Below are positions 5,665 to 34,862 of a stretch of DNA of 38,299 nt, piece after piece. A program made the translations under genes and the position numbers. The notes beneath the pieces were generated by a model, which worked only from the letters and a program-made list of their open reading frames with translations, did no database searches and was not told where the DNA came from. This stretch comes from a virus. Taxonomy: Duplodnaviria; Caudoviricetes. Positions within the stretch are counted from its first letter, which is position 1, and every line of letters starts with the position of its first letter. The DNA lies in the IMG/VR virus record IMGVR_UViG_3300043707_000018, positions 1 through 38,299 of that record, one strand, 5' to 3'.

Positions 5665-6948
5665 ATGGCGGGTAATGAGGCACAAGTTCTGGGTACTGAA
5701 CTTGAGAGAGTTCTACCCAAAGTCCCAGCTTTATTTGATAGGGATGATGTATTCTATGCCACTATTGAAAAGCGACCTGTTGAAGTCATATCTTCCAGAG
5801 ACATGCGAATCCCTCTTGAAATGCGACCCAACGGGAATACAGGTTACTATAACCCCGATGGCGGAGACATGGGTCGTGGTGATATCAGCGACTTTGACAA
5901 GGCCATCATCAATTCTGTACATCTCGTGCACAGAGTGGAGATGACGGCAAAAACTGTCTGGTCAACAGATAACACCCGCAAGGCCGTTATCAACGCCTTC
6001 CGACATAGTTTGGCTGTCGAAATGAAGCAGTTTCGTAGAGATGTTGACAGTCAAGCTATGACGGATGGTACTGGTACAATGGCTACCATTACAACGGTGA
6101 GTAGAGCCACAGATACAAATCCACCAGTAATGGGTGCTGTTCGTCTAACATTTACGACAGATGGATTTAGGGCGCGTTTGTTGCGACCCAAACAACTTAT
6201 CAACATCTTCAATTCAACATTGACAACCTGCAAAACTTTAGCGGGAGAGCCTCAAATCGTTTATTACGATCTTGCACAGAACACGATTGAAATAAACGCT
6301 GACGTTGCTGGGATCGTTCCTGGAGATCTAATTGTAGCAGATGGTCTACAAATGATTCCTCCTGTCGGCTTATTGGGAGTTAAGTACCATGACTCAAATG
6401 CTTCCGTCGGAACGTGGCTTGGATTTAATCGAGCTGTTAACCCAGAAATACGCGCTAACGCGGTCAATGCGAATGGAGTTGCGCTTACATTACCCCTCCC
6501 TCGCTTGGCAATTAATAAAATTGGGGATCGTATCGGAATCAATCATGATTCCCGTCTAACAGCCTGGATGCACAAGGCTCAAGAAGCTGCATACGAGGAG
6601 CTTGGATTTAATGTCATCAGAATCGACAAAGAAGCCCGTGAACAGGGTTTGGACATGTACTTTAACGATAACATGCGGATGGCAGGAGCGCCCGTCAGAT
6701 GCCATTATAGCTGGGATCGAACAAGGATTGACTTCATTGACGAAACAGTTTGGGGAAGAGCTGAACTCCGTACTCCAGGATTTTATCAAAACCCAGATAA
6801 TAACCAACGAGTCTGGGAATTACGTGGGCCAAGCGGTGGAGTTGCGGCGGGTTGGATCTTCTACATCGTAGCTAGTTTCAACATTTTCATGAATCAACCG
6901 GCGGGAGCAAGTTACATTTACAACTTAGCAGTGCTCGCAGGTTACTGA
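5665..6948 (+). CDS. major capsid protein
   Basis: 427 aa after scaffold, AGGAG RBS, terminator-like hairpin downstream; HK97-fold-like segments (MRIPLEMRPNG, AVEMKQFRRDVDSQAMTDGTG). Confidence 0.8.
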   Translation: MAGNEAQVLGTELERVLPKVPALFDRDDVFYATIEKRPVEVISSRDMRIPLEMRPNGNTGYYNPDGGDMGRGDISDFDKAIINSVHLVHRVEMTAKTVWSTDNTRKAVINAFRHSLAVEMKQFRRDVDSQAMTDGTGTMATITTVSRATDTNPPVMGAVRLTFTTDGFRARLLRPKQLINIFNSTLTTCKTLAGEPQIVYYDLAQNTIEINADVAGIVPGDLIVADGLQMIPPVGLLGVKYHDSNASVGTWLGFNRAVNPEIRANAVNANGVALTLPLPRLAINKIGDRIGINHDSRLTAWMHKAQEAAYEELGFNVIRIDKEAREQGLDMYFNDNMRMAGAPVRCHYSWDRTRIDFIDETVWGRAELRTPGFYQNPDNNQRVWELRGPSGGVAAGWIFYIVASFNIFMNQPAGASYIYNLAVLAGY

Positions 6949-6982
6949 GTAGTCCTCTCTGGGTACTTCATTGGCTGCCCGT

Positions 6983-7023
6983 GGGGTAATTCTTCATGCG
7001 ATGAAGGGTTACCCCAACTTTTT
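6983..7023 (+). terminator. intrinsic terminator after major capsid gene
   Basis: GGGGTAATTCTTCAT-GCG-ATGAAGGGTTACCCC, a 15-bp stem with two G.U pairs, followed by AACTTTTT. Confidence 0.65.
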
Positions 7024-7569
7024 ATGACGGACGTAGAAATAATCAACGGCTGGTTATCGGATACATATAGAACGACGGTAGAGAACTATCCTGTCTACAG
7101 AATCGTGTGGTCGGAGGATATATTTGAGAACAGACTTGGGACTTATAGAGAGTTTACAGAATCGGGACTCTTCATTAGGGAGGTCACGGAAGTTAGAAAA
7201 GTCAGAAAGTACGGTTATATCCATCACAGATGGATATTCGAAATTTGGGCACCAGGCAATCTTACTAGGAATCCTGAGACTCCAGATGCGGCTAGTGGTG
7301 ATTACATTCCAGTATATGTCTTTGAAAGCGGTTTGGGTATGTATCTTCCGGTTACCCGCAAAGTTGTGGAGTTCCTTATCTCAGCTTTGGAAGGTAAAAT
7401 TAAGAGAGATCTCGAGCCGACTGAGGAGTACCTTGCAGAGAAGGAGGTCGCGGCGATGGTTGAAAGCTTGGATGACCATCCATCTTATTTCCAAACTAGA
7501 GCAGGTCCAGCAAGAAACGCGATATGGTTTAAGGGATTTGATCCCCAGAAAATCGAAGGAGACAAATGA
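7024..7569 (+). CDS. hypothetical protein (virion module)
   Basis: 181-aa ORF coupled to the next gene by ATGA. Confidence 0.75.
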   Translation: MTDVEIINGWLSDTYRTTVENYPVYRIVWSEDIFENRLGTYREFTESGLFIREVTEVRKVRKYGYIHHRWIFEIWAPGNLTRNPETPDAASGDYIPVYVFESGLGMYLPVTRKVVEFLISALEGKIKRDLEPTEEYLAEKEVAAMVESLDDHPSYFQTRAGPARNAIWFKGFDPQKIEGDK

Positions 7570-20029: not shown

Positions 20030-22483
20030 CTATATCTTCTTCATACTCTCCCAATTCTCTCCGGTTTTGATTTCGCACGGTATCGATAGGACGCCGCGTG
20101 GTAAAGAACAATTCGCGAAATCAATTGGGGATTCCATTTCCTCCTTGATTATTGGAATTGCTTTATCCAAATCTCCGACTGGAATTTGAGCCAAGAAACT
20201 ATCGTGACATTCTGCTAGGATTTGAATTGTCGGAATTCGCCGCTCTATCTGCATCGCAGCTTTCTTAGTCTGATCCGATACTGTGCTTTGTGGAATTTGG
20301 GCATATGCCTCTTTGAATAATTCGTCTCCCCATTTATTGAGAAACATTCGTTGACGACCATTTGGGCTTGTTAACGTTCGCGTTCCAGATAACGCATCCT
20401 GAATTTCTTTATGGAATACCCCTCTGATATTAGGATTCGTCTTATGGACTGCATCCAGAATTTGCGCGGCGCGCCATTCGGGCATCCGACCTTGGATGGC
20501 TGCTTCGCCTTTCCCCATTGCATAATTGCAAGCGTGACGAAATTTCTTTCCCATCTGTCGTTGTTCTTCATTAATGTGATACCTCATGTACTCATTGATC
20601 TCGTCAGCTAATGCTTTATCGCAAAACTCATCATCTGCACTCCAGAATAAATTCAATTGCTCTACGGGACTGTTCCCAAGGATTTGGGTGGCCGTGAACC
20701 TATGGATATCAATGTTGTATCGGAATGCTTTAAGAAGTCGAAGATCATTTGCAAGAATTGCAACCACTCTTGCTTCCGCTCCGCTAAGATCTGGTTCGAC
20801 GAATATGTATCCAGGATCGGGTATAAACATTCGTCTAAGATCTGATCCGACGTCCCCATGTTTTGTAACTGTTTGGAGAGCCAACCCCATTGGTCGCGTG
20901 GTAACCGGAGGCTTAAGTACACTGGTCGAAGTTCGTCCCGTTTCCAAGATAATGCGATATCCAGTAAGCAGTCGTCCTCTATAGTCAACTTCAGTGTCAA
21001 TGTAGGTTCCAATAGTTTTCCGTACCTTTCTAATCTCGAGGATTAACTCAAGAATTCTTTTCTTCTTTGGATCTTTGACTACGTTCCTTAGTAGTCCATC
21101 AATGCTCTTTTCGTCAGTCCCCTTCCTGATTGGTAACTTCATCCCGACATAGATCAACAATGGAACATCACCTCTAGATCCATTGCTGTTAACGTTGACT
21201 GGCTTTTCCATATATTCTACCGTCAACTCATTCAATTCCTTCTGTAGTTCTTCCCATTGCATTTGATACTTTTCATGCAGAAAATGCATGGCAAAATTAT
21301 CTCTGAGGATTCCCCTGTCTTCGATCCTGCTGTAGAACGGGTGTAAGGGCATCTGAATCTCAAAAAAGAACTTCGTGAGATTTCTCTCTTCAAGTTCCTG
21401 TAAGCATTTCTCGTATACTTCAAATGTAACCGCCGCATCCTTTGCGTTGTACAACAACAACCGATCAAACTTATCTTTCTTCGGGTTGTATTCTTTTCCC
21501 TCATCTTTATAGTATGGCTCCTCTGTCAGGACTGAAGTTGAAAACTGCAATGAGCCTGGTAATTCGGGATACAAGACTCTAAAGGCGAGTAAAGTATCAA
21601 AGTAAAAGCCGCGAGTGACAATGCCAAAATTGCAAGTACCATTAAGACAAGTAGCCAATTGCTTCTCATCAAACTTAAAATTCTGACCAATTTTCCTAAC
21701 ATTTGGATTCGCCATTAATGCTGATACTTGTTGCCAACAATCTACGAGATCCAGATTCGTCATTCCTGAATTCATAGGCTTGTTGAGTAATGGAATGGAC
21801 ATTGCATTCTCCTTATCGAATGCGAGTCCAATGCAAATTGGCATCGTTCTGAAGGTCTCTATATCAACGGATACTAGATCCCTATCTTTGTTGCTGTCGA
21901 GGAACCTATACAGCATTTGGGCATTCCTACAGACCATTAAGTTCCTCTGAGGCAGCCGAAGTTCAGGGAATTTTGTCTGTTCAACTGCGCGCTCTGCATC
22001 CCATTTTATATATGTGAGATCCTTCCAAGACCTCATCTTACCGTCTTGCTCACCATGTAATATACTCGCTGGGTGCAGAGTAGCGACAACCTTAAAAGGG
22101 CCAAAGTTGCACGGAAGAATCGAGCCCCTATATTTCTCGATTCCACGATGTCCAGTAAGAGCCTCAAGAGCCGTATTGCCAAATGCCAATACGCAATTTG
22201 GACTGATAGCACGAACTTCTTCATATAGTTGAGGTAGAAAATCTGCAATCGTTTTGCCATAGAGTTGTAGATCCTTAATCTTATTGTTCGGAGGTCGTAT
22301 CTTAACAACATTCGTGACATAGACTCTCTGCCTTGGCATCCCCGCGGACTCGAGAATACTGTCGACAAGCTTTCCACTTGGACCAACGAATGGGCGGCCC
22401 ATCCTTTCTTCGTCCGCTCCTGGAGCTTCCCCGACGGCGACAAGGCTCGCCGACGATGGTCCCTCTCCACCAACGTAAGTCAT
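20030..22483 (-). CDS. polA: family A DNA polymerase with N-terminal family-4 uracil-DNA glycosylase domain and 3'-5' exonuclease
   Basis: UDG: VGEAPG, RPFVGPSG, YVTNVVK, LHPA. Exonuclease: VDIET, GQNFKFD, YNAKD. Polymerase: TGRTS, DLSGAEAR (motif A), RQMGKKFRHACNY (B), CHDS (C). Confidence 0.92.
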   Translation of the reverse strand: MTYVGGEGPSSASLVAVGEAPGADEERMGRPFVGPSGKLVDSILESAGMPRQRVYVTNVVKIRPPNNKIKDLQLYGKTIADFLPQLYEEVRAISPNCVLAFGNTALEALTGHRGIEKYRGSILPCNFGPFKVVATLHPASILHGEQDGKMRSWKDLTYIKWDAERAVEQTKFPELRLPQRNLMVCRNAQMLYRFLDSNKDRDLVSVDIETFRTMPICIGLAFDKENAMSIPLLNKPMNSGMTNLDLVDCWQQVSALMANPNVRKIGQNFKFDEKQLATCLNGTCNFGIVTRGFYFDTLLAFRVLYPELPGSLQFSTSVLTEEPYYKDEGKEYNPKKDKFDRLLLYNAKDAAVTFEVYEKCLQELEERNLTKFFFEIQMPLHPFYSRIEDRGILRDNFAMHFLHEKYQMQWEELQKELNELTVEYMEKPVNVNSNGSRGDVPLLIYVGMKLPIRKGTDEKSIDGLLRNVVKDPKKKRILELILEIRKVRKTIGTYIDTEVDYRGRLLTGYRIILETGRTSTSVLKPPVTTRPMGLALQTVTKHGDVGSDLRRMFIPDPGYIFVEPDLSGAEARVVAILANDLRLLKAFRYNIDIHRFTATQILGNSPVEQLNLFWSADDEFCDKALADEINEYMRYHINEEQRQMGKKFRHACNYAMGKGEAAIQGRMPEWRAAQILDAVHKTNPNIRGVFHKEIQDALSGTRTLTSPNGRQRMFLNKWGDELFKEAYAQIPQSTVSDQTKKAAMQIERRIPTIQILAECHDSFLAQIPVGDLDKAIPIIKEEMESPIDFANCSLPRGVLSIPCEIKTGENWESMKKI

Positions 22484-32005: not shown

Positions 32006-32103
32006 TGGTTTAGCTATGTAGGTTGCTACATAGCCCCCCCAGGGGGGGTTAGGCAAAATGGGGGAGTCGGTAAAAATTGCTTGGGTCGGGGAGGAGTAGT
32101 TAG

Positions 32104-32137
32104 ATATATAATATATATATATATATATGTATATATA
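32104..32137. repeat. (TA)n tract, candidate DNA-unwinding element
   Basis: ATATATAATATATATATATATATATGTATATATA between a G-rich left flank and a C-rich right flank. Confidence 0.85.
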
Positions 32138-32196
32138 CCCCTTACATACCATTCCCCTAACCCCCCTATTTTCAATGGTTTAGGGGGGTATTTCCT

Positions 32197-32413: not shown

Positions 32414-32502
32414 TGGTGAGTCGGGAGGGATTTGAACCCTCATCGTCCTATGGACGGCTAGTTTTACAGACTAGTGCAGCCAACCGTATCTGCCTCCAAC
32501 TC
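32414..32502 (-). tRNA. tRNA-Tyr (GTA), long variable arm, encoded CCA, atypical A8
   Basis: GAGTTGG/CCGACTC acceptor, GCAG/CTGC D-stem, CTAGT-CT GTA AA-ACTAG anticodon arm, CGTCC/GGACG variable arm, GAGGG-TTCAAAT-CCCTC T-arm, A-CCA; 89 nt. Confidence 0.9.
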
Positions 32503-32514
32503 ATGAGAACTCAT

Positions 32515-32580
32515 AAAGAATCCTTTGGTAGTGGCTCTGCGAGTCTATAGCCTCCAAAGCCACTCACCAAAATACTCTTT
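32515..32580 (-). ncRNA. long imperfect hairpin immediately 5' of the tRNA
   Basis: AAAGAGU-A-UUUUGGU-G-AGUGGCUUUG pairs with CAGAGCCACU-ACCAAAG-G-AUUCUUU. Confidence 0.6.
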
Positions 32581-32803: not shown

Positions 32804-32878
32804 CACAGCTTAAATCCTCATCGCATGAAGATTTAAGTTGTGGGTCGGCAGAACCTAAGTCCCACCGACCACCCACAA
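32804..32878 (-). other. two overlapping hairpins downstream of the 118-aa gene
   Basis: GGUCGGUGGGAC-UUAG-GUUCUGCCGACC (12 bp), then CACAACUUAAAUCUUCAU-GCG-AUGAGGAUUUAAGCUGUG. Confidence 0.6.
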
Positions 32879-33242: not shown

Positions 33243-33282
33243 ATTGGTATCCTTTTCGAATTAGGTAGCCTTTCATTTCTAC

Positions 33283-33331
33283 CTGAGAAAAGTATAGCGT
33301 GGCGCAAGCGCGGAGTCAATACTTTTCTCAG
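33283..33331 (-). promoter_or_regulatory. sigma70-type promoter flanked by a perfect 13-bp inverted repeat
   Basis: TTGACT (33319-33314)-N17-TATACT (33296-33291); CTGAGAAAAGTAT (33283-33295) / ATACTTTTCTCAG (33319-33331). Confidence 0.8.
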
Positions 33332-33408: not shown

Positions 33409-33573
33409 TCAGAATACCGGCCGCATTTCGACTTCCACGTTCTCGTCATCGGAGTGGGAGTCTTCTAACTCTGACTTGCGCTGTAGAGCTTTGAACTCAC
33501 AGTACTCAAGCCAACGTTCGATGATACGTCCGGTATTCAATGCTCTTGCGAGCACAACGTACTTTTGTCGCAT
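33409..33573 (-). CDS. 54-aa hypothetical protein (MRQKYVVLARAL...EMRPVF), not in the ORF track
   Basis: AAAGGAG RBS 5 nt before ATG. Confidence 0.7.
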   Translation of the reverse strand: MRQKYVVLARALNTGRIIERWLEYCEFKALQRKSELEDSHSDDENVEVEMRPVF

Positions 33574-33585
33574 AGGACTCCTTTC

Positions 33586-33637
33586 AAGTCAAGCGTGGGC
33601 GTCGGGTACAGATCCCAATGCCCAGCCGCTTCACCTT
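33586..33637 (-). ncRNA. hairpin B of the G.G/5-bp/GC-bulge family
   Basis: GU-G-AAGCG-GC-UGGGC-A-UUGGG...CCCGA-C-GCCCA-CGCUU-G-AC. Confidence 0.65.
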
Positions 33638-33640
33638 TGG

Positions 33641-33871
33641 TCAGCAACCGTCGTAGTTGCGTGCGATCCAATCGTCATTGCAAATGTCGTCCTCACGAGG
33701 TTGAGGTCGGGGAACAGGCCGTAACTCAACATATTGGCCGTTCATTGACATCCCAAGCAATGCGTCTTGCCAAAAACGACGTGCTTGCTGTAAAGGCATG
33801 GCCGTCTCGTACAGGCGGACCCAACAATTGTCTTTCTTCTCGAATAGGCTGTAAAGCCTAGGTTGTTTCAT
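33641..33871 (-). CDS. hypothetical protein
   Basis: Start ATG 33871 with AAGGAG. Confidence 0.7.
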   Translation of the reverse strand: MKQPRLYSLFEKKDNCWVRLYETAMPLQQARRFWQDALLGMSMNGQYVELRPVPRPQPREDDICNDDWIARNYDGC

Positions 33872-33880
33872 ACGGTCTCC

Positions 33881-33931
33881 TTCAATCGTGGACCTCACGG
33901 GTTATCAAGCCATGAGATCCAGCCGATTCAA
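33881..33931 (-). ncRNA. hairpin A of the G.G/5-bp/GC-bulge family
   Basis: UU-G-AAUCG-GC-UGGAUCUCAUGG...CCGUGAGGUCCA-CGAUU-G-AA. Confidence 0.65.
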
Positions 33932-34083
33932 GACAGCCAAATTAGGCTGAAATTGTCTGTCCGCAAAACATCACCTTGACCCTCAACCGTTTTGGCTGTT
34001 ATGGCCGTCCTGTATCGCCCATTCTCGTTAGTTTGGATGATCCAAAGTTGGCCGTAGTGGTCACGTTCGATTGTTGTTGTCAT
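33928..34083 (-). CDS. 51-aa hypothetical protein (MTTTIERDHYGQLW...SLIWLS), not in the ORF track
   Basis: AAAGGA RBS; lies exactly between hairpins C and A. Confidence 0.65.
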   Translation of the reverse strand: MTTTIERDHYGQLWIIQTNENGRYRTAITAKTVEGQGDVLRTDNFSLIWLS

Positions 34084-34096
34084 ACTGAATGTCCTT

Positions 34097-34168
34097 TCAA
34101 CATTCAACCTCCTGCGCGCCGTAACCCTTGCGAGCAGGTTACAGCGTACAGGGCAGGCTCAATGCTGA
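34097..34168 (-). ncRNA. hairpin C of the G.G/5-bp/GC-bulge family
   Basis: UCAGCAUU-G-AGCCU-GC-CCUGUACGCUGUAACCU...GGGUUACGGCGCGCAGG-AGGUU-G-AAUGUUGA. Confidence 0.65.
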
Positions 34169-34176
34169 CAAAGCGA

Positions 34177-34241
34177 AAGCCACTAGCTTTCGGTCGGCGC
34201 GTTACGCTTGATAGCGTGCGCTTCCTACTCACTAGCGGCTT
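34177..34241 (-). ncRNA. hairpin with loop-E/sarcin-ricin-like internal loop
   Basis: AAGCCGCUAGU-GAGUA-GG...CC-GAAA-GCUAGUGGCUU, with GCGC/GCGC and ACGCU/AGCGU upper stems. Confidence 0.55.
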
Positions 34242-34862
34242 AACGGATGTCCTATCAACTACTCAGGCGCCACGCGTGCCAGATTTATTAGGCGCCGTCC
34301 AACTAACCCATGCGCCGGGCAAGATATTTGATGTCTTTCACCTTGCACTTGCCCGGATTCGCTTTCGCAATGCAGTGCTACTAAGCGCGCCTCGCAGCCG
34401 CTCCTCGCAACAGTTTTATGGGCCACTTGTTGTACAGAGGTGACGTCCATGCTACTCACCGAACCTGCCCTTTGGGCCGACAGACAATCTCTGAGCTAAC
34501 CAAACGGAGGGAATTCATGCGCGCGTGGTTCGCGCTGCTTGGTCTAGTTCAACTGCCTTCACAAGATTGGACGCCGCCCGGGCGAGGAAAGATTCAACTT
34601 TCTTTGGACCTAAAATTGCAGCGCGGCGCGCATTTTGCCAGTCGTCGCACCCGACTAAAGTGGTAGTCTATGGCCAGGGGCCTCCAGGATTTGGACCTCC
34701 CCGTGCTCCCCCGCACGTTTGGGTCCACAGGGACTCCGGAGGCGTGTAAACCCCTATCGCGTACCTAAGCTTTGCAACCCGATCTCGACCCAACCGATAA
34801 TTTACAAATTTTCGATTAAGTCTTCATGCAATGAAGCATTATCCCTGTTTTTTCGTAAATTT

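What the first reader, a model, noticed from the sequence alone, without database searches (positions are those of the whole stretch)
33586..34168. Three covarying RNA hairpins with the same G.G mismatch / 5-bp helix / GC-bulge motif, each abutting the SD of a consecutive tiny early gene
Seen: on the - strand, hairpins C (34097-34168), A (33881-33931) and B (33586-33637) each read stem, G.G mismatch, 5 bp (AGCCU/AGGUU, AAUCG/CGAUU, AAGCG/CGCUU), unpaired GC on the 5' arm, then a long upper stem. Each ends at UGAA(A)GGA before 51-, 76- and 54-aa ORFs. Paired bases differ while the mismatch and bulge are invariant, and G.U pairs fit only the transcribed strand. Inference: a structure-specific cassette, either a nuclease processing signal (T7 early mRNA RNase III sites are the established analogue) or a binding site for a phage RNA-binding regulator. 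I do not recognise it as a named RNA family.
Basis: partly seen in the sequence, partly recalled or inferred. Interest (0 to 1): 0.8.

Follow-up and report, generated by a model that had tools for sequence, protein, structure and literature searches.

The report
Phage hairpins mimicking rRNA processing stems
Three RNA hairpins in front of tiny early genes of an uncultured soil phage share the exact core of the stem from which Gram-positive bacteria cut out their 16S rRNA, so they are likely signals for the host enzyme RNase III to cut the phage's early message into single-gene pieces, a job that related phages appear to give to self-cleaving ribozymes.

Summary
A descriptor finds exactly these three hairpins genome-wide and none in 20 shuffles; Rfam has no model. 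Low-depth strain contigs change apical pairs compensatorily, spare the core and swap the downstream genes.

The invariant U-A/G·G/A-U triad also lies in the pre-16S processing stem of 5 of 5 Bacillota and 1 of 1 actinomycete examined. Published RNase III cuts in that stem, transferred by analogy, predict a cut at U^UGA on the 3' arm. For C and B the released RNA refolds into a 5'-terminal hairpin with the SD in its loop. Two related phages carry hammerhead or pistol ribozymes in the same slot.

Best reading: host RNase III sites of the T7/SP82 kind; the GC bulge probably limits cutting to one strand.

Against: no RNA data, host unknown, B's basal stem is 4 bp, E. coli matrix scores are middling, and no other phage searched has the exact motif.

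The parts
34093..34173 (-). Hairpin C: 8-bp lower stem (extends by 4 bp over the SD), G.G at 34160/34105, 5 bp, GC bulge 34154-34153, long upper stem; predicted 3'-arm cut between 34107 and 34106
   Evidence: one strain contig (X7) with 9 changes confined to 34119-34144
34086..34106 (-). Nested short hairpin of C, starting exactly at the predicted cut, SD in its loop; mutually exclusive with the lower stem of C
   Evidence: 7 Watson-Crick pairs, -7.0; product fold -7.8 kcal/mol
33928..34083 (-). ORF C, 51 aa, no PHROG or Pfam match; its stop codon is the UGA of hairpin A's 5' arm; replaced by other sequence in strain contig X7
33879..33933 (-). Hairpin A: G.G at 33929/33883, GC bulge 33923-33922, 12-bp upper stem; predicted cut between 33885 and 33884 leaves a 13-nt leader that starts at the SD
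33641..33871 (-). ORF A, 76 aa, no homologue other than itself; absent in strain contigs X8/X11; preceded by a different B-like hairpin in X7/X10
33586..33636 (-). Hairpin B: 4-bp lower stem, G.G at 33632/33590, GC bulge 33626-33625; predicted cut between 33592 and 33591
33576..33590 (-). Nested short hairpin of B with the SD in its loop
   Evidence: 4 Watson-Crick pairs, -3.4 kcal/mol
33409..33573 (-). ORF B, 54 aa, no PHROG or Pfam match
33263..33319 (-). Sigma70-type promoter (TTGACT-17-TATACT, 33319-33291) followed at the likely start site by a 6-bp hairpin with the same UGAAAGG loop; orthologue with changed pairs in L004
   Evidence: fold alone not significant, z -1.25

Best explanation
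The three hairpins are likely host RNase III processing sites that would cut the phage's early polycistronic mRNA just 5' of each ribosome-binding site. Shown: the fold, its covariation, and that the invariant U-A/G.G/A-U triad with its neighbouring pairs matches the basal proximal box of the Bacillus pre-16S stem. Inferred from mapped rRNA cuts: G.G sits at box position C', so the 3' arm is cut at U^UGA and the 5'-arm site would be UGARN^C. Inferred: the GC bulge falls on positions D/E of the loop-side box, the most strictly paired positions of RNase III substrates, so the 5' cut is probably suppressed and only the 3' arm is nicked, as in T7 R1.1. The upstream piece would keep a protective 3' hairpin. 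The downstream piece would start with UGA and, for C and B, snap into a short 5'-terminal hairpin with the SD in its loop, like the one at the neighbouring promoter. Each orphan gene thus gets its own capped 5' end, which fits the observed swapping of hairpin-SD-ORF modules between strains.
For: (1) The triad lies in the best leader-spacer helix of pre-16S in 7 of 38 loci with a full 16S: 5 of 5 Bacillota, 1 of 1 actinomycete, 1 of 25 from the phylum of G001, 0 of 7 others. The basal box UA GG AU AU of C and A equals that of B. velezensis. (2) The S. aureus RNase III product of pre-16S starts ACUGAAU (PMC3937233 supplement rows), which aligns three A's after the G.G in the P. megaterium leader. 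The B. subtilis 3' cut lies 65 nt beyond a 5' end 2 nt past mature 16S (PMC4838370), against G at +68 in B. velezensis. Both place G.G at C'. (3) In 85 E. coli double-cut stems G.G occurs 4 times at C, 6 times at C' and never at A, B, D, E or F on either side; it is the commonest mismatch there, 10 of 37 (PMC6212723 Table S4). (4) The predicted product of C pairs from its first nucleotide; chance of a >=6-bp stem around such a loop is 0.0025, of >=4 bp 0.039; 3 of the 4 such stems among 12 UGAAAGG sites of the genome are in this region. (5) Relative G046 (terminase 70% identical) has a long hairpin (z -5.13) ending in the same nested SD hairpin before a 57-aa ORF. (6) A pistol ribozyme over the Rfam cut-off and two descriptor-matched hammerheads lie directly before the SD of 57-, 59- and 80-aa early ORFs in G059 and G046. 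(7) Strain contigs keep the core while changing upper stems and genes.
Against: The host and its RNase III are unknown, and no cleavage or transcript was observed. B's basal stem is only 4 bp and A's is irregular beyond 4 bp, whereas E. coli RNase III needs about 11 bp on the recognised side (PMC1540722); basal half-site scores are -9.8 (C), -12.6 (A) and -15.1 (B) against -9.2 for pre-16S. With my reading of the E. coli 24-position score, none reaches the strict -25.5 threshold, and the best register for C (-27.6) and A (-29.7) is the mirror one, with G.G at C, while B's best is a third register (-29.4). RNase III reading does not explain why the bulge is always GC. Predicted SD accessibility after the cut rises only for A (0.49 to 0.87) and falls for C (0.60 to 0.41) and B (0.55 to 0.50). 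The S. aureus leader itself was not fetched and the mature 16S 3' end was assumed. Strain contigs have depth 2-3.6, and the C variant rests on one contig. No clear promoter was found upstream of C (best -strand match 9 of 12).
Confidence: 0.6

Rival explanations
1. A cleavage-free two-state translational switch. The long hairpin and the nested SD hairpin are alternative folds; a ribosome terminating at the upstream stop codon melts the long hairpin and couples or dampens translation of the next gene.
For: The stop of ORF C is the UGA in A's 5' arm and the stop of ORF A lies 5 nt before B. The 3' lower strand of C and B can pair either way, as in G046.
Against: Hairpin C has no convincing upstream ORF. 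Coupling does not need an invariant G.G five pairs from an invariant bulge, nor identity with the pre-16S box. A lacks the nested hairpin.
Confidence: 0.15
2. An operator for an RNA-binding protein (phage or host, possibly RNase III binding without cutting) that reads the groove opened by G.G and the GC bulge and switches the three genes together.
For: The bulge sequence is invariant in C, A, B and in the visible part of the X7/X10 variant. Bulge motifs that allow RNase III binding but block cleavage are described (PMC1540722 introduction).
Against: No RNA-binding or nuclease domain in 27 ORFs with Pfam or 32 with PHROGs. The motif is absent from 23 related records, which use other hairpins or ribozymes in this slot.
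Confidence: 0.12
3. The hairpins matter mainly as DNA homology for gene-cassette exchange, like PeSLs of T4-type phages; the RNA fold is secondary.
For: In X8 and X11, ORF A is missing between hairpins A and B; in X7 and X10, ORF A sits behind a B-like element; in X7, hairpin C leads into a different gene.
Against: Copies are only 8 of 28 identical at paired positions. The X8/X11 junction uses a 2-nt overlap rather than the shared arms. G.U pairs and compensatory changes point to selection on RNA.
Confidence: 0.05
4. A protein-free self-cleaving RNA, or a substrate of another endonuclease (for example Mini-III or a phage enzyme), cutting at the bulge or mismatch.
For: Relatives put hammerhead and pistol ribozymes in the equivalent position.
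Against: A single unbranched hairpin with 4 invariant unpaired bases has no visible catalytic core; no ribozyme model matches; no nuclease domain among the early ORFs.
Confidence: 0.06

Closest known systems
RNase III processing stem flanking 16S rRNA in Bacillota and Actinomycetota
   Same: U-A/G.G/A-U triad with the same neighbouring pairs on the basal side; similar 3'-arm sequence running into GAAGG.
   Different: The rRNA stem is a long-range, unbulged helix of about 20 bp cut on both strands. The phage version is a local hairpin with a GC bulge two pairs from the 5' cut site, a shorter base, and an SD at its foot.
RNase III sites of phage T7 early mRNA (R1.1 type) and of B. subtilis phage SP82
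   Same: Irregular hairpins between early genes; T7 sites are cut on one strand, which matures and protects the mRNAs (PMC8708148); SP82 RNAs are RNase III targets (PMC4838370) and carry a 5' stabiliser (PMC11805744).
   Different: Different defect geometry (G.G plus 2-nt bulge rather than an internal loop; T7 and SP82 sequences were not compared here). Cleavage is predicted, not shown.
PeSL cassettes of T4-type phages (PMC2839356, PMC4122927)
   Same: Repeated intergenic element before orphan genes in a hypervariable early region, with gene gain, loss and replacement next to it.
   Different: PeSLs are promoter plus terminator. These hairpins show neither consensus, and the one junction seen does not use the repeat homology.
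Hammerhead and pistol ribozymes near phage genes (PMC6765202)
   Same: Same slot, directly 5' of the SD of tiny early genes, in two relatives; processing of polycistronic transcripts is the proposed role.
   Different: No ribozyme core in these hairpins; a protein nuclease is predicted.

Membership tests
Bacterial RNase III substrate | About two helical turns of dsRNA around the site | tested here: met
   29, 21 and 19 predicted pairs in C, A and B with a mismatch and a bulge
Bacterial RNase III substrate | A-U/U-A pairs at proximal-box positions B and D, G.G tolerated only at C | tested here: met
   U-A/G.G/A-U in 3 of 3; Table S4 of PMC6212723
Bacterial RNase III substrate | At least about 11 bp on the side that specifies the cut | tested here: inconclusive
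   Met for C; irregular for A; 4 bp for B on the basal side; met on the loop side only if the bulge is flipped out
Bacterial RNase III substrate | Score above the E. coli substrate threshold | tested here: inconclusive
   Best registers -27.6, -29.7, -29.4, between the paper's -33.8 and -25.5; my log10 formula was not verified against the paper
Bacterial RNase III substrate | Enzyme-dependent cleavage leaving 5'-phosphate ends | not testable with these tools
   Needs a bench assay or 5'-end sequencing
PeSL cassette | Sigma70 promoter plus terminator stem-loop in each repeat | tested here: not met
   No terminator-like match in the hairpins and no promoter match within them
PeSL cassette | Gene exchange next to the repeat | tested here: met
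   Three rearranged forms in strain contigs
Known self-cleaving ribozyme classes | Rfam model or hammerhead core | tested here: not met
   No Rfam hit; no hammerhead descriptor hit in the window
Intrinsic terminator | GC-rich hairpin followed by a U tract | tested here: not met
   Followed by purine-rich SD, not U

The most novel reading that the evidence does not exclude
Boldest reading not excluded: the G.G/5-bp/GC-bulge hairpin is itself a minimal protein-free self-cleaving RNA of a new class, filling the slot that hammerhead and pistol ribozymes fill in sister phages. A more likely intermediate reading (about 0.3): a phage-evolved mimic of the host's rRNA processing stem in which a precisely placed bulge turns a double cut into a nick, interchangeable in evolution with ribozymes.
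Probability: 0.04. Interest if true: 0.9.

Novelty: new variant of a known kind. Interest (0 to 1): 0.5.

Why it matters
It gives base-level predictions for a natural RNase III substrate design: an rRNA-type box on one side, a bulge on the other, and a product that caps itself. Within one phage family, likely RNase III hairpins, hammerheads and a pistol ribozyme occupy the same position before the SD of tiny early genes. That makes the open question of why self-cleaving ribozymes sit beside phage genes directly testable by swapping one device for another. The triad may also hint at a host with Gram-positive-type rRNA stems.

Tried and rejected
Other phages with the exact motif: none found. IMG/VR pattern scans returned only a contig identical to this phage plus chance hits: 3 loci; 120 loci, scan stopped at 28 of 64 parts; filtered; 74 loci; filtered, where 3 loose passes outside this phage folded otherwise or weakly; 1 locus. 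A 3-sequence covariance model found nothing at E<=1 in 23 related records and only the three copies (plus one E 1.6 hit) in 16 sources; it was built on a poor MAFFT alignment and is narrow. A relaxed triad search over 82 sequences gave many coding-region hits and one other with SD+ATG (L334), lacking the bulge. The metagenome and GTDB scans gave one locus each with no new copy.

Host: not determined. The only cellular record is a 52% terminase match in an Anaerolineales MAG; the methylase search gave no taxonomy.

No RNA holder listed.

K-turn/tandem G.A register: rejected on inspection, since shifting the register breaks the 5-bp helix. CsrA-type site: orientation does not fit the consensus I recall. 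The leader 34175-34560 is not unusually stable (z -1.14). Atlas search of ORF A gave only leads under 0.9.

Literature: ten searches showed no description of this motif. Four motif strings and the contig id were not found in 6 supplement files of PMC10690425, but 3 files could not be searched, so a prior listing there is not excluded.

Full report
Context. The window is one 38.3-kb virus record, about 82% complete, found in soil metagenome runs. It has terminase and head genes on + and polymerase, Sak4-like, exonuclease and helicase genes on -. The hairpins lie at the start of the - strand block, just beyond the non-coding stretch before the terminase genes; that this is the early region is inferred from position. 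The three ORFs have no PHROG or Pfam match, and the 76-aa ORF has no homologue but itself.

Observation. Confirmed. Three copies genome-wide, none in 20 shuffles; 8 of 28 paired nucleotides but all 4 unpaired ones are identical across copies. If the unpaired bases drifted like the paired ones this would happen about 0.7% of the time (my estimate, (8/28)^4). Rfam has no model.

Strain variation (Logan contigs of 6 runs, depth 2-3.6, so individually error-prone). One X7 contig covers 140 nt around hairpin C with 7 substitutions and 2 deletions, all within 34119-34144. They comprise a C-G to U-A double change, a U-A to U.G change, two loop changes, and two substitutions plus one deletion per arm that re-pair on hand inspection. 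The chance of all 9 falling in that 29-nt segment is 2e-7, with the segment chosen after the fact. The contig then runs into a different gene. X8 and X11 lack ORF A and most of hairpin A; B stays whole, and a 2-nt insertion restores the fourth lower pair that the junction changed (hand reading). X7 and X10 place ORF A behind a B-like element with a new upper stem and the GC bulge still visible; three of its differences were not listed by the tool. These runs may belong to one campaign.

What reads the core. In the E. coli in vivo RNase III table (PMC6212723; seen: passages, one part of the text, supplement part 1 with Table S4) G.G occurs only at C and C' among the core positions, between the A-U-preferring B and D. 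With structure fixed and letters randomised, the loop-side half-site with G.G at C is matched by 3%, 0.95% and 0.67% of threads. Whole-site scores are middling and favour that mirror register for C and A. I then recalled that Bacillus pre-16S stems hold a G.G and tested it. The best leader-spacer helix contains the triad in B. velezensis, P. megaterium, Geobacillus, Acetoanaerobium, Latilactobacillus and Kitasatospora, in 1 of 25 loci from the phylum of G001 (many have a G-C pair there), and in 0 of 7 others; 6 fetched loci lacked a full 16S and were dropped. Mapped cuts fix the register. The S. aureus product starts ACUGAAU (PMC3937233; passages and supplement rows) and the B. subtilis 3' cut lies near +66/67 (PMC4838370; passages) against G at +68 in B. 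velezensis. Both put G.G at C'; the mirror register would put the 3' cut near +71. These are cross-species transfers: the S. aureus leader was not fetched and the mature 16S end was assumed.

Transfer to the phage. The 3' arm would be cut at U^UGA. The basal proximal box of C and A equals that of B. velezensis and scores the same (-2.9); B scores -3.1. On the loop side the bulge falls on D/E, where the box score drops to about -8 if the bulge is counted and recovers to -3 to -4 if it is flipped out. One box set suffices to specify one cut, and bulges can limit cutting to one strand (PMC1540722, introduction and results part; PMC3867540, passages). Hence the inferred nick. The weak point is helix length below the cut in A and especially B.

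An independent check on the site. The predicted product of C folds from its first base into a hairpin with the SD in the loop; B does so from its second base; A leaves the SD at the very 5' end. The same UGAAAGG-loop hairpin follows the sigma70 promoter at 33319, where no start codon follows it, and is kept with changed pairs in L004. This suggests 5'-end protection more than activation: computed SD accessibility rises only for A. 5' stem-loops and SD elements stabilise mRNA in B. subtilis (PMC11805744, passages).

Relatives. The exact motif is lineage-specific so far. The slot is not. G046 has a long hairpin ending in the nested SD hairpin and a type I hammerhead whose cut would fall just before an SD (Rfam only E 0.87). 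G059 (terminase 47% identical) has a pistol ribozyme above the Rfam cut-off and a type II hammerhead, each before a 57- or 59-aa ORF. Rfam gathering scans covered 26 loci and gave that one hit. Three hammerhead descriptors over 83 sequences gave 2 hits, both before SD+ATG; no shuffle control was run for them. Most relatives inspected show neither device. A review lists polycistronic processing near phage genes as the proposed but unproven role of such ribozymes (PMC6765202, passages).

Comparison. It works like T7 and SP82 early RNase III sites (PMC8708148 passages), and membership as an RNase III substrate is met on geometry and box sequence, inconclusive on length and score, and untested on cleavage. 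It is not a PeSL (PMC2839356 passages; PMC4122927 abstract), though genes are exchanged beside it. Also consulted as passages: PMC11780869 (plus one section), PMC3074117, PMC9291653 (a '+3 G' contact whose position I could not map) and PMC5923468 (nothing useful). Earlier notes of this scan describe similar SD-adjacent hairpin arrays in other phages; they are unchecked and suggest the general kind is common.

Verdict. A real, selected RNA element; most likely a new variant of phage RNase III processing sites (0.6). Interest 0.5, carried by the rRNA-stem mimicry, the exact predictions and the ribozyme parallel.

Noticed in passing
L340:7118-7194 (+) and L340:6142-6203 (+), record G059: Pistol ribozyme (Rfam 43.7 bits, cut-off 34.5) and a type II hammerhead whose stem II holds the SD, each directly before a 57- or 59-aa early ORF.
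   Followed up: partly
L321:12733-12790 (-), record G046: Type I hammerhead below the Rfam cut-off, predicted cut 1 nt before the SD of an 80-aa ORF.
   Followed up: partly
window 34240-34480 (-): Gene-free leader with four GAGTAG/TAGTAG-like repeats; parts are kept, with many changes, in strain contigs X7 and X8 in other contexts. Overall fold not significant; no other IMG/VR match.
   Followed up: partly
L327:16760-16990 (-), record G051: Long-range stem with a G.G mismatch enclosing about 170 nt, just before the SD of a small early ORF (output, read by eye).
   Followed up: no
L009:6180-6460 and 6412-7278: A different repeat precedes two consecutive tiny early genes, and a second short repeat occurs 3-4 times on both strands upstream.
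   Followed up: no
window 32417-32502 (-) and 32520-32580 (-): tRNA gene with a GTA anticodon and long variable arm, preceded by a long hairpin with a single G bulge that could be another processing stem.
   Followed up: no
window 32806-32876 (-): Two adjacent strong hairpins after the 118-aa gene; the second resembles two hairpins in L004.
   Followed up: no
window 20030-22483 (-): Family A DNA polymerase with an N-terminal uracil-DNA glycosylase domain.
   Followed up: no
window 32100-32140: Long TA-rich dinucleotide run flanked by inverted GGGGG/CCCCC tracts, also present in L004 and G046; possible replication origin.
   Followed up: no
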